This document shows, in pieces, positions 1-1,441 of a stretch of DNA of 9,484 bases. The notes beneath the pieces are model-generated. The model had not been told where the DNA came from. It did not search any database and saw nothing but the letters and a program-made list of their open reading frames with translations. The position numbers and the translations under genes were made by a program. The stretch lies in the IMG/VR virus record IMGVR_UViG_2695420821_000007. One strand, 5' to 3'. The stretch comes from a virus (taxonomy: Duplodnaviria > Heunggongvirae > Uroviricota > Caudoviricetes). Every line of letters begins with the position of its first letter. Position 1 is the stretch's first letter.

Positions 1-1441
1 TGTCCGTCCCCACTTCACACAGATACACGCCCCGCTGATTGCGGGTTTTCGGCATGGTGATCACCGGCTTGCCATAGACAGACGCGCCTTTTACCGGCAG
101 CACCCGGAAAACACCGTGTTTTTTTGATCTCTGATAAACAATTTCACCATCGATCCCCCCGGTGTCCCAGCAGACACGGGAAATGGTCATTTCGGTGCCA
201 TCCGCATGGCGATATTTTTTGTTGATCGCAGCATCCACACGTAACAGCGTCTCTTCCTCATCGGGACGCCCCATAATGATGATTTTATCCACCAGAAAGG
301 CTTCCTCTCCCGGTGCCCATCCCCAGACATACATCTCAAAACGGTTTCGCTGCGAGTCAATGCCCGCCGTCAGATAAACCACCCGGGAAGGCACCGCAGC
401 CGTGTAACGCACAACCTTATCCATCAGTACCTGGTGATCGAGTTTTTCGCCCACGGCCTCTTCCCAGGTCTCGCCCAGCGTGGTGTTCACAAAGGTTTTC
501 AGGCCGTTGGGATCTTTCAGTGCATCCAGCCAGTCATAGACAATCTGTACCCAGGTGGTGAACGGACTGTACGCCGTCCAGATATGGAACGTGATGGAGC
601 GCGGCGGCGGAATTTCATCACCCCGGGCGCTGAAAAACGTCAGACCGTCACGGGTCCACATGCCCGTGTTTTCACAGATCCACCGCCCGTTGCTCTGGTC
701 AAGCTCAGACTGATGGATCACGCAGCCATGATGTTCACAGAGGTAGAAAACACTTTCAGGGCTGTCCTTCTCCCATTTAAGCCCAAAAGGCGTGGACTCA
801 TCGCCAAATTTCAGATACTGCGCCTCCCCACAGTGCGGGCAGGGCACATAAAAACGCATAAAATGCGCCGACTCGTTAGCGGCTTTTTCGATCTGGCAGG
901 TGCCTTTGATTTTAGGCGTCGAGCCGCGAATGGATTTTGGCCACACCGACCCCTCAATACGCTTATCCCCCAGCAGGGTTGGCGAGCCCTCTTTTTCGAC
1001 ATCCGGCTCGAACGAGGAAAGTTCGTCATAGCAGACCACGTCCACGGATTTTTCACGGTAGTTTTTGGCGGCAGCGCCGCCCAGGCACCAGAAACCGACG
1101 CCCGATGAAAAGCGTTTCAGCGTGAGAGTATTGTCACGATGTTTACGACCCAGCCATGGGGAAAGGTCTTTCAGGCATGGCACGTTCCGAATCGTCGCCT
1201 CCACGTGAGACTTCATAAAATCTTCAGCGGCAGAATCCGTGGGCTGAAAAAGCAGACTGTTTCGGGATTTATGCTCAATAAAATACCCGACCACCCCCAG
1301 CAACATCTTTGTATAGCCAACACGGGCAGATTTAATCAGGTTAACCGTGAGAACCTGGTCGTTACCCATACAGTTCATAATGGCGATCTGGAACCTGTCG
1401 GATCGCCGGAAAGGACCCACGAAAATGATAATAATTATCAT
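1..1441 (-). CDS. Phage terminase large subunit (lambda gpA family), N-terminally truncated; C-terminal part runs off the window start
   Basis: Continuous minus-strand frame of 480 codons from ATG at 1441-1439 to position 2. Translation aligns with lambda gpA from about residue 55 onward (FQ-AIMN-MG, KSARVGY-KMLLGV, GSPTLLGDKRIEGSVWPKSIRGSTPK, WTAYSPFTTWVQIV, FVNTTLGETWE, YLTAGIDSQ, WDTGGID). An in-frame TAG lies immediately 5' of the ATG, there is no Shine-Dalgarno, and no Nu1-like ORF is upstream, so the Nu1-interaction domain is missing. Confidence 0.85.
   Translation of the reverse strand, partial: MIIIIIFVGPFRRSDRFQIAIMNCMGNDQVLTVNLIKSARVGYTKMLLGVVGYFIEHKSRNSLLFQPTDSAAEDFMKSHVEATIRNVPCLKDLSPWLGRKHRDNTLTLKRFSSGVGFWCLGGAAAKNYREKSVDVVCYDELSSFEPDVEKEGSPTLLGDKRIEGSVWPKSIRGSTPKIKGTCQIEKAANESAHFMRFYVPCPHCGEAQYLKFGDESTPFGLKWEKDSPESVFYLCEHHGCVIHQSELDQSNGRWICENTGMWTRDGLTFFSARGDEIPPPRSITFHIWTAYSPFTTWVQIVYDWLDALKDPNGLKTFVNTTLGETWEEAVGEKLDHQVLMDKVVRYTAAVPSRVVYLTAGIDSQRNRFEMYVWGWAPGEEAFLVDKIIIMGRPDEEETLLRVDAAINKKYRHADGTEMTISRVCWDTGGIDGEIVYQRSKKHGVFRVLPVKGASVYGKPVITMPKTRNQRGVYLCEVGTD
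1425..1441. promoter_or_regulatory. Perfect 8-1-8 palindrome ATGATAAT-A-ATTATCAT, matching the Fur 7-1-7 box TGATAATnATTATCA; candidate operator
   Basis: Exact inverted repeat read directly from the sequence. It overlaps the start codon of the truncated terminase and lies about 155 bp upstream of the RHH gene, in AT-rich intergenic DNA. Function is inferred only. Confidence 0.3.

What the first reader, a model, noticed from the sequence alone, without database searches (positions are those of the whole stretch)
1425..1441. Perfect Fur-box-like 7-1-7 palindrome at the truncated terminase junction
ATGATAATAATTATCAT is an exact 8-1-8 inverted repeat whose core TGATAAT-A-ATTATCA matches the Fur 7-1-7 operator motif TGATAATnATTATCA (14 of 19 against the classical 19-bp E. 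coli Fur box). It lies in the AT-rich region between the truncated terminase and the RHH gene and overlaps the terminase start codon. It could impose iron-dependent control on the RHH/PerC-like cargo, be the operator of the RHH protein itself, or be the scar of the recombination that truncated the terminase. A perfect palindrome of this length is unlikely by chance even in AT-rich DNA.
Basis: partly seen in the sequence, partly recalled or inferred. Interest (0 to 1): 0.45.

Follow-up and report, generated by a model that had tools for sequence, protein, structure and literature searches.

The report
Known Fur box beside phage cosQ
The palindrome is real and is a copy of an already described binding site for the iron regulator Fur (the E. 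coli K-12 nohB/nohA "Fur box") that lambda-like phages carry next to their DNA-packaging site; it was not created by the terminase truncation and is not placed to control the PerC gene.

Summary
Observation confirmed. ATGATAATAATTATCAT is at 1425-1441. Copies at 5559-5575 and 7926-7942 lie in near-identical segments joined by N gaps. It is a perfect 7-1-7 Fur motif and matches the 19-bp Fur box at 17/19, not 14/19.

It is not a junction feature. The window's + strand runs antiparallel to the lambda map. The palindrome lies 6 bp beyond cosQ (AGGACCC, 1412-1418), inside DNA homologous to the right end of lambda, 434 and phi80. The deletion removed about 0.85 kb: most of cosN, cosB, nu1 and 55 codons of terminase A. 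Its breakpoint is at 1392/1393, 32 bp away. Intact prophages carry the same palindrome.

The 17-mer and 27 bp around it are identical to the K-12 DLP12 nohB/nohD site. That site was found by Fur titration and scores 25.3 bits. The Qin nohA/lambda variant was gel-shifted by Fur and carries a ChIP-seq summit.

Across 78 unique cos loci the motif tracks with cos, not with the ylcI (RHH-like) gene. Some viable phages lack it.

Verdict: a known Fur site. The Fur reading is supported. The scar reading is refuted, the RHH-operator reading is unlikely, and PerC control does not fit the geometry. What Fur does there is unknown.

The parts
1425..1441 (.). 8-1-8 perfect palindrome ATGATAATAATTATCAT; 7-1-7 Fur core at 1426-1440, centre 1433
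   Evidence: Identical to the K-12 DLP12 nohD/ylcI intergenic site.
1421..1445 (.). Extended Fur-box cluster: 17/19 match to the classical 19-bp box at 1421-1439 (+), 16/19 (-), and 15/19 at 1427-1445 (-). These are overlapping registers 6 bp apart.
   Evidence: Chen et al. 2007 describe 2-4 overlapping sites at the K-12 homologues.
5559..5575 (.). Second copy of the palindrome, in segment 2 of the scaffold (99.6% identical repeat)
7926..7942 (.). Third copy of the palindrome, in segment 3 (100% identical to segment 1)
1412..1418 (-). cosQ (GGGTCCT on the minus strand), the packaging-termination subsite, 6 bp from the palindrome
   Evidence: Annotated cosQ of phage 434 aligns here. It is invariant in all surveyed loci.
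1392..1411 (-). Remnant of the right arm of cosN plus the cosN-cosQ spacer (aacctgtcggatcgccggaa). The 12-nt cohesive-end sequence and everything to its left on the lambda map are missing.
   Evidence: Alignment to the lambda, 434, ML35 and K-12 cos regions
1392..1393 (.). Deletion junction with 2-bp microhomology (AA). It joins codon ~56 of terminase A to cosN, 3-5 nt from the mature right end. The deletion is 846 bp relative to the ML35 prophage.
   Evidence: The junction is also present in IMG/VR contig L182. It is absent from 5426 complete E. coli genomes.
2..1441 (-). ORF for the 5'-truncated terminase large subunit (GpA ATPase + nuclease domains; runs off the window). Residues 1-16 are read from cos DNA.
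1596..1820 (+). It points away from cos, antisense to late transcription.
   Evidence: Pfam PF13132 E=1.3e-17; NCBIfam NF041551; annotated as such in RefSeq
1494..1526 (.). Second inverted repeat ATCAATTATTACG-7-CGTATTAATTGAT, ~70 bp upstream of ylcI. It is invariant in lambda, 434 and K-12 and is a better candidate for a ylcI-specific operator.
1902..2216 (-). PerC-family (Pch-like) regulator gene. Its promoter lies at >2216, far from the Fur box.
   Evidence: Pfam PF06069 E=3.8e-44; RefSeq annotation of homologues

Best explanation
The palindrome is a high-affinity binding site for the host iron regulator Fur. It is an ancestral, conserved part of the DNA immediately left of cosQ in lambda-type cos modules (lambda, 434, phi80; slightly altered in HK225 and N15; K-12 DLP12 and Qin; many E. 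coli prophages).

SHOWN:
- It is orthologous to the K-12 nohB/nohD site and identical to it over 27 bp.
- It is orthologous to the nohA/lambda variant.
- The 14 specified bases of its 7-1-7 core are as invariant as cosQ, while the central base and the flanks vary.
- It stays with cos when the neighbouring genes are swapped.
- It predates the deletion in this window.

FROM THE LITERATURE:
- The nohB site titrates Fur in vivo.
- The nohA site was selected in vivo, is shifted by 150 nM Fur in vitro, and lies under a ChIP-seq summit.

INFERRED MECHANISM:
- Fe2+-Fur dimers occupy overlapping 7-1-7 registers centred on 1433, with weaker ones at +/-6.
- In an intact prophage this places Fur where rightward late or moron read-through transcription enters cosQ-cosN-cosB-nu1-A. 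The most likely role is therefore repression or roadblock of transcription into the terminase genes (the Fur -> nohA relation assumed in the K-12 literature).
- In this window cosN, cosB, nu1 and the Nu1-binding N-terminus of terminase A are deleted. The site is thus a relic. At most it acts on the truncated terminase ORF, or on ylcI, or simply adds to the cell's pool of Fur-binding sites.
- It does not regulate the PerC-like gene.
For: Orthology and exact coordinate mapping:
- Alignment A1.
- The Qin palindrome centre, NC_000913.3:1636600, equals 1634624 in Chen et al. 2007. The DLP12 centre, 580601, equals 579824.

Fur binding of the homologues:
- nohA: 22.3 and 12.6 bits, gel shift, in vivo selection by Vassinova & Kozyrev.
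- nohB: 25.3 bits, third in Chen et al.'s list of strong Fur clusters, FURTA (Stojiljkovic 1994).
- ChIP-seq summit at 1634625, listed among Fur-repressed loci (PMC3688515).

Motif quality: perfect 7-1-7 and 17/19.

Constraint: core 0.07 variants per position, against 1.08 in the flanks, 4 at the centre N and 0 in cosQ.

Association with cos rather than with neighbouring genes:
- 71 of 78 unique cos loci have the motif with <=2 mismatches, 5-8 nt after cosQ.
- Nine of these lack a detectable ylcI: six are flank-distinct locus types and three are truncated loci. In the six, the next gene reads toward cos.
- phi80 has a perfect copy in unrelated flanks.

Ancestral to the deletion: the intact ML35 prophage is 100% identical over window 1392-1900.
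Against: - No Fur binding or expression data exist for this locus itself.
- No convincing sigma-70 promoter was found on either strand near the box. There are only 8/12 matches, and their -10 hexamers are the box itself. No conserved -35 appears across lineages.
- I found no accessible genome-wide dataset showing Fur- or iron-dependent expression of nohA/nohD/ynfO/ylcI. The Fur ChIP-seq paper I could read does not mention them in its main text.
- Viable phages (2B8) and Gifsy-1 have lambda-type cosQ/cosN without the motif. Whatever it does is therefore dispensable.
- N15 and HK225 carry weakened versions, CGATAAT....
Confidence: 0.8

Rival explanations
1. The box is a Fur operator for the divergent ylcI/ynfO (DUF3950, RHH-like) gene. 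Fur would make this lysogen-expressed small protein iron-responsive.
For: 62 of the 71 unique motif-bearing cos loci also carry ylcI about 165 bp away, pointing away from the box. The whole 155-bp interval is highly conserved. This is the only intact gene left next to the box in this window.
Against: The motif persists at a fixed distance from cosQ in six flank-distinct locus types with no ylcI, where the neighbouring gene is co-directional with late transcription. The box centre is 163 bp upstream of the ATG. No acceptable promoter overlaps it on the + strand.
Confidence: 0.2
2. The palindrome is primarily a DNA-packaging element: an extension of the cosQ termination signal, or a site for a host or phage protein that helps terminase stop and cut. 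On this reading its resemblance to a Fur box is secondary or co-opted.
For: - Its only constant neighbours are cosQ-cosN-cosB-nu1.
- Spacing to cosQ is fixed at 5-8 nt across lambda, 434, phi80, N15, HK225 and Kosakonia prophages.
- The phi80 annotators include it in a 55-bp 'cosQ; aka R4 region'.
- N15 changed both outermost bases symmetrically, T...A to C...G. This preserves dyad symmetry while weakening the Fur consensus.
Against: - Phage 434 annotation, and the packaging literature as I recall it, define cosQ as 7 bp.
- Isolated phage 2B8, Gifsy-1 and several prophages have conserved cosQ/cosN but unrelated sequence in place of the box.
- Fur binding of the lambda-type sequence is experimentally shown.
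Confidence: 0.12
3. The box acts as a Fur decoy. Replicating phage DNA (about 100 or more copies), or many prophage copies per genome, titrates Fur and derepresses host iron uptake. This is the principle by which nohB was discovered in the FURTA assay.
For: nohB and nohA fragments titrate Fur when multicopy. Homologous cos-ylcI regions occur up to 15 times per E. coli genome. A regulatory target gene is not evident.
Against: Purely inferential, with no data. One site per genome against thousands of Fur molecules may be too few. The motif is dispensable in some phages.
Confidence: 0.08
4. The palindrome is the operator of the YlcI RHH-like protein itself (autoregulation).
For: It is a palindrome upstream of a small, possibly RHH, protein. 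The low-confidence model shows two helices after a short N-terminal extended segment. DUF3950 is matched.
Against: The motif occurs without ylcI in six flank-distinct locus types. A second inverted repeat, invariant across ylcI-bearing loci, lies closer to the gene at 1494-1526. The sequence is a textbook Fur site with demonstrated Fur binding in homologues. The RHH fold was not confirmed: pLDDT 58 and no PDB sequence relative.
Confidence: 0.04
5. The palindrome is a scar or by-product of the recombination that truncated the terminase.
For: It lies within 32 bp of the junction, and its outer ATG opens the truncated ORF.
Against: Identical or near-identical palindromes sit beside intact cos sites in ML35, K-12, lambda, 434 and phi80. 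The junction is at 1392/1393 with 2-bp microhomology, outside the palindrome.
Confidence: 0.01

Closest known systems
E. coli K-12 nohB (nohD) Fur box, DLP12 cryptic prophage (Stojiljkovic et al. 1994 FURTA; Chen et al. 2007: 25.3 bits at 579824)
   Same: Orthologous position, between cosQ and ylcI. The 17-mer and 27 bp around it are identical (window 1422-1448), with the same distance class to cosQ.
   Different: In DLP12 cosN, cosB and the nu1 homologue nohD are still present next to it. Here they are deleted. There is one extra base between cosQ and the box, and a 7-bp insertion just after it.
E. coli K-12 nohA Fur site, Qin prophage, which is phage lambda bp 48451-48467 (Vassinova & Kozyrev 2000; Chen et al. 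2007 EMSA; ChIP-seq summit in Myers et al. 2013)
   Same: Same element at the same place. The 7-1-7 core's specified bases are identical.
   Different: GTGATAATGATTATCAT: the outermost base and the central base differ, so the lambda/Qin form is a 7-1-7 repeat, not an 8-1-8 one.
Classical Fur box / Baichoo-Helmann 7-1-7 operator
   Same: 14/14 specified bases of TGATAATnATTATCA and 17/19 of GATAATGATAATCATTATC, with overlapping 6-bp-shifted registers as in natural Fur operators.
   Different: It does not overlap a recognisable -35/-10 of an iron-uptake gene. Its constant neighbour is a phage packaging site.
Lambda cos subsites (cosQ, cosN, I2, cosB)
   Same: It lies 6 bp from cosQ, co-inherited with it. 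The phi80 annotators include it in their 'cosQ aka R4 region'.
   Different: It lies outside the 7-bp cosQ annotated in phage 434. It is absent from some phages with conserved cosQ/cosN. No packaging role has been demonstrated.

Membership tests
Fur operator (E. coli Fur regulon binding site) | Sequence match to the 19-bp Fur box / 7-1-7 inverted repeat, well above chance | tested here: met
   14/14 of the 7-1-7 and 17/19 of the 19-mer. No shuffle reaches this, and 3e-4 are expected from local composition. The 19 bp at -9..+9 are identical to the K-12 nohB site, scored at 25.3 bits by Chen et al..
Fur operator (E. coli Fur regulon binding site) | Direct binding of Fur to the DNA (EMSA, footprint or titration) | not testable with these tools
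   Shown only for orthologous sites: nohA EMSA and in vivo selection, nohB FURTA. The nohB site is sequence-identical, so binding here is a strong inference.
Fur operator (E. coli Fur regulon binding site) | In vivo occupancy | not testable with these tools
   Indirect only. A ChIP-seq summit at 1634625 lies on the Qin homologue, in an FNR ChIP study that lists the locus as Fur-repressed. The Fur ChIP paper available to me does not mention these genes in its main text.
Fur operator (E. coli Fur regulon binding site) | Overlap with a promoter whose output responds to iron or Fur | tested here: inconclusive
   Only 8/12 sigma-70-like hits on either strand, all using the box as -10. No conserved -35 across lineages. 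No expression data found.
Lambda cos packaging site | cosQ heptamer GGGTCCT | tested here: met
   1412-1418 on the minus strand; aligns with the annotated cosQ of phage 434.
Lambda cos packaging site | Intact cosN (12-nt cohesive-end sequence with both nick sites), cosB and nu1 | tested here: not met
   The window joins terminase codon ~56 to ...AACCTGTCGG. GGGCGGCGACCT, cosB and nu1 are absent. This cos cannot be functional.
Lambda cos packaging site | The palindrome itself is a required cos subsite | tested here: not met
   It lies outside the annotated 7-bp cosQ. It is missing from phage 2B8, Gifsy-1 and 7 unique prophage loci that keep cosQ and cosN. Requirement in lambda itself has not been tested experimentally here.
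Autoregulatory operator of an RHH (YlcI/DUF3950) protein | Co-occurrence of operator and regulator gene | tested here: not met
   The motif is present without ylcI in six flank-distinct locus types.
Autoregulatory operator of an RHH (YlcI/DUF3950) protein | The protein has an RHH DNA-binding fold | tested here: inconclusive
   DUF3950 hit. No PDB sequence relative. The single-sequence AlphaFold model has pLDDT 58, with helices at 19-30 and 37-56.
Recombination junction scar | Feature present only where the rearrangement occurred | tested here: not met
   It is present in intact loci and free phages. The junction is 32 bp away.

The most novel reading that the evidence does not exclude
The Fur box is a functional, selected component of the lambda-type cos module, not an ordinary promoter operator. 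Fur (or iron status) would gate terminase access or termination at cosQ, or protect or mark the first-injected DNA end. Alternatively, replicating phage genomes use it to titrate Fur and derepress host iron uptake. I found no paper in the searchable library that links this Fur site to cosQ. Yet it is conserved 5-8 nt from cosQ in lambda, 434, phi80, N15 and HK225, and in prophages of Escherichia and Kosakonia.
Probability: 0.12. Interest if true: 0.6.

Novelty: already known. Interest (0 to 1): 0.2.

Why it matters
For this window it matters mainly as a correction.
- The palindrome is inherited cos-flanking DNA, not a product of the rearrangement.
- It gives no basis for proposing iron control of the PerC/Pch virulence regulator.

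More generally, one of the strongest predicted Fur sites in E. coli K-12 is a conserved neighbour of cosQ in lambda itself and in many lambdoid phages. This is a small, under-noticed fact. It raises a cheap, testable question: does Fur or iron affect terminase expression, packaging termination or host iron uptake during phage growth? Strains with many lambdoid prophages also carry many copies of this high-affinity site, which could matter for Fur titration.

Tried and rejected
- Rfam scan of 1-4546 at E<=1: only a sub-threshold DicF hit inside the terminase gene and nothing at the palindrome.
- Sigma-70 and terminator scan of 1300-2500: no promoter near the box. A relaxed scan gave only 8/12 hits.
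- Supplementary tables of Chen 2007 and Beauchene 2015 are not held, so I could not see the nohA oligo sequence or the Fur ChIP peak lists. I verified the site by coordinate mapping instead.
- Wieczorek & Feiss 2001 (definition of cosQ) is not held.
- YlcI: no PDB relative by sequence. The single-sequence AlphaFold model was too poor to fold-search.
- phi80 'putative Fur-regulated protein' PHI80_64: no NCBIfam hit, not followed further.
- The genome-contig scan mostly returned lambda spike-in contigs and chance hits in GC-rich genomes. Only a few were real cos sites.
- I did not build my own Fur weight matrix. The -9..+9 sequence is identical to a site already scored in a published model.
- Considered and rejected from memory only: other palindrome-binding regulators (ArgR, LexA, Zur, FNR). 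Their half-sites or spacing do not fit.
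Full report
OBSERVATION

The 17-mer ATGATAATAATTATCAT is at 1425-1441, exactly as described.
- It is a perfect 8-1-8 inverted repeat.
- Its inner 15 bases match the 7-1-7 Fur motif TGATAATnATTATCA at all 14 specified positions.
- Against the classical 19-bp Fur box GATAATGATAATCATTATC the best register is 1421-1439, with 17 of 19 matches. Overlapping registers give 16/19 on the other strand and 15/19 six bases over.
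- From local base composition a perfect 7-1-7 core is expected 3e-4 times in the window. Any perfect 8-1-8 palindrome is expected about 0.08 times in the unique 4.5 kb. No shuffle reproduced it.

The two extra copies (5559-5575, 7926-7942) are not independent evidence. The window is three segments separated by 11-N gaps. Segments 2 and 3 restart at the equivalent of position 424 and are 99.6% and 100% identical to segment 1.

WHERE IT REALLY SITS

BLAST against phage genomes showed that homology to lambda-like phages starts at window 1392 and runs to the very last bases of the linear phage records. The window's + strand is therefore antiparallel to the lambda map, and position 1392 corresponds to the right cohesive end.

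Phage 434 has an annotated cosQ heptamer that aligns with window 1412-1418 (AGGACCC; GGGTCCT on the other strand). The palindrome begins 6 bp further on.

An intact prophage in E. coli ML35 is 100% identical to window 1392-1900. It shows the complete arrangement: terminase large subunit, terminase small subunit, cosB, cosN (...gaggtcgccgccc|cgtaacctgtcgg...), cosQ, palindrome, ylcI, PerC.

In the window, terminase sequence ...gatctggAA is joined directly to AAcctgtcgg at 1392/1393, with 2 bp of microhomology.
- This deletes 846 bp relative to ML35: the cohesive-end sequence, cosB, nu1 and the first 55 codons of the large subunit.
- The truncated ORF's first 16 codons, including the ATG inside the palindrome, are simply cos DNA read in frame.
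- The junction is real at contig level, because an independent IMG/VR contig carries it. None of 5426 complete E. coli genomes has it.

The palindrome is therefore ancestral and lies 32 bp from the breakpoint. It is not a recombination scar.

WHAT IT IS

An alignment of the cos-to-ylcI interval from the window, ML35, phage 434, lambda and the two K-12 cryptic prophages shows the following.
- The same 17-mer is present in 434 and DLP12.
- Lambda and Qin have GTGATAATGATTATCAT.
- Among these six sequences only the outermost base and the central 'n' differ.

Chen et al. 2007 (PMC2189734) report a Fur site cluster of 22.3 and 12.6 bits at 1634624/1634630 upstream of nohA.
- Purified Fur gel-shifted it.
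- Vassinova and Kozyrev had isolated it earlier by in vivo selection.

Chen et al. also report a 25.3-bit cluster at 579824 upstream of nohB. It is third in their list of strong Fur clusters and is credited to the Fur titration assay of Stojiljkovic et al. 1994.

I mapped these coordinates.
- The centre of the Qin palindrome is NC_000913.3:1636600, which is 1634624 after the 1976-bp offset given by the nohA start.
- The centre of the DLP12 palindrome is 580601, which is 579824 with an offset of 777. That offset rests on my own knowledge of the coordinate differences between the two versions of the K-12 sequence, not on a gene coordinate given in the paper.
- Myers et al. 2013 (PMC3688515) list a ChIP-seq summit at 1634625 among Fur-repressed loci.

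The window's site is identical to the nohB site over 27 bp (1422-1448), which includes the whole -9..+9 range of the published model. The Fur reading rests on experimental binding data for orthologous sites.

CONSERVATION AND ASSOCIATION

I collected cos loci using only cosN/cosQ sequence as bait.
- 120 loci came from IMG/VR.
- 55 came from one-genome-per-species contigs, many of which were lambda spike-in or chance hits.

Of 146 true cos loci, 78 are unique.
- 71 carry the 7-1-7 motif with at most 2 mismatches, 5-8 nt after cosQ.
- 62 of these also have ylcI.
- 9 have no detectable ylcI: six flank-distinct locus types and three truncated loci.
- 7 have cos but neither the motif nor ylcI.

The six flank-distinct locus types without ylcI are L012/L056/L119, L025, L161 from Kosakonia, L040, and L172, which is phage phi80. 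L025 is related to the L012 group and L040 to L161, so they represent about three independent flank families. In these loci the DNA beyond the motif is unrelated to the ylcI-type flank and the next gene reads toward cos. The motif's only constant neighbours are therefore cosQ-cosN-cosB-nu1.

Among 20 unique in-register sequences, variant counts per position are:
- 0.07 at the 14 specified core positions;
- 0 in cosQ;
- 1.08 in the flanks;
- 4 of 20 at the central unspecified base.

This is descriptive, because the sequences are related. It is nevertheless the pattern expected of a constrained 7-1-7 site.

Other classic phages:
- phi80 has a perfect copy inside what its annotators call the 55-bp 'cosQ; aka R4 region'.
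- HK225 has CGATAATAATTATCA.
- N15 has CGATAATAGTTATCG, where the outer pair changed symmetrically.
- Isolated phage 2B8 and Salmonella Gifsy-1 keep cosQ and cosN but have unrelated sequence in place of the box. The motif is therefore dispensable.

HOW IT MOST LIKELY WORKS

Shown: identity with known Fur-binding DNA, conservation, linkage to cos, and independence from the truncation.

Inferred:
- Fe2+-Fur dimers occupy overlapping registers centred on 1433.
- In intact phages the site lies where late or moron read-through transcription enters cos and the terminase genes. Repression or roadblock of that transcription (the Fur -> nohA relation used in K-12 regulatory compilations) is therefore the most economical role.

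I could not find a convincing promoter on either strand. There are only 8/12 hits whose -10 is the box itself, and no conserved -35 across lineages. I also found no accessible expression data. The regulatory target therefore remains open.

In this window the natural downstream partners are deleted, so the site is probably a relic.

It cannot control the PerC-like gene in the usual way.
- That gene (2216 to 1902, minus strand) has its promoter beyond 2216.
- It ends about 460 bp before the box.
- A hairpin shared with the convergent ylcI gene separates them.
- Tobe et al. 2014 saw no Fur binding at pch promoters.

RIVALS

- Fur control of ylcI is possible. It is weakened by the ylcI-less lineages and by the 163-bp distance to the ATG.
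- The RHH-operator idea is weaker still. A second inverted repeat (1494-1526, 13-nt arms), invariant in all the ylcI-bearing sequences aligned, lies closer to the gene. The RHH fold itself is unconfirmed.
- A packaging role is suggested by the tight linkage and spacing to cosQ and by the symmetric N15 variant. It is contradicted by phages that lack the element.
- A Fur-decoy role is conceivable, because this is how nohB was found, but it is untested.

NOVELTY

The element is the nohB/nohA Fur box, known since 1994-2007, and this is another copy of it. The fact that it is a conserved flank of cosQ in lambda, 434, phi80 and N15 appears in no paper of the searchable library. The phi80 annotation implicitly recognises the conserved block. 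That linkage is a modest lead, not a discovery made in this window.

Noticed in passing
window 4547-4557 and 6914-6924; segments 4558-6913 and 6925-9484: The window is three pieces joined by 11-N gaps. Pieces 2 and 3 both restart at the equivalent of position 424 inside the terminase gene. Piece 3 is 100% identical to piece 1. Piece 2 differs at 6 bases and 2 indels. At least two slightly different genomic copies therefore share the same cos-terminase deletion junction, or the scaffold repeats collapsed prophage contigs.
   Followed up: partly
window 1392-1393: The deletion's cos-side endpoint lies 3-5 nt from the position of the mature right DNA end (the cosN nick) and uses 2-bp microhomology (AA). 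This suggests the 846-bp deletion began at a terminase-cut cos in the prophage, followed by resection of the nu1 side and end joining. It also removes exactly the Nu1-interacting N-terminus of terminase A.
   Followed up: partly
window 1494-1526: Inverted repeat ATCAATTATTACG / CGTATTAATTGAT (13-nt arms, 12/13 complementary, 7-nt spacer), ~70 bp upstream of ylcI. It is invariant in lambda, 434 and K-12 DLP12/Qin, within a 130-bp non-coding block that is almost invariant overall. It is a candidate ylcI promoter or operator, or an RNA element.
   Followed up: partly
window 1842-1868: The hairpin aaaaaGCGACcactaaaGTCGCttttt sits between the convergent ylcI and PerC genes and looks like a bidirectional intrinsic terminator. 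The scan tool did not list it, probably because the A/T runs extend the stem.
   Followed up: no
L187 (Gifsy-1) 343-366: Gifsy-1 lacks the Fur box after cosQ. It has a different palindrome, ATTGTTAcaataTAACAAT, ~30 bp upstream of STM2610. From memory this resembles a Zur-type (zinc regulator, Fur family) box. This is a lead only and was not tested.
   Followed up: no
L186 (phage N15) right end, 46315-46329 of NC_001901: N15 carries CGATAATAGTTATCG at the homologous position. Both outermost bases changed (T to C and A to G), which preserves dyad symmetry while departing from the Fur consensus.
   Followed up: no
L185 (phi80) 1161-1391: ORF PHI80_64, ~0.9 kb from cos, is annotated 'putative Fur-regulated protein'. 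It has no NCBIfam match, and I did not trace the origin of the label.
   Followed up: partly
window 2217-2460: A very AT-rich (about 35% GC), A-tract-rich region lies upstream of the PerC-family gene. This is typical of horizontally acquired, H-NS-type silenced promoters. No Fur-box-like match better than 13/19 occurs there.
   Followed up: no
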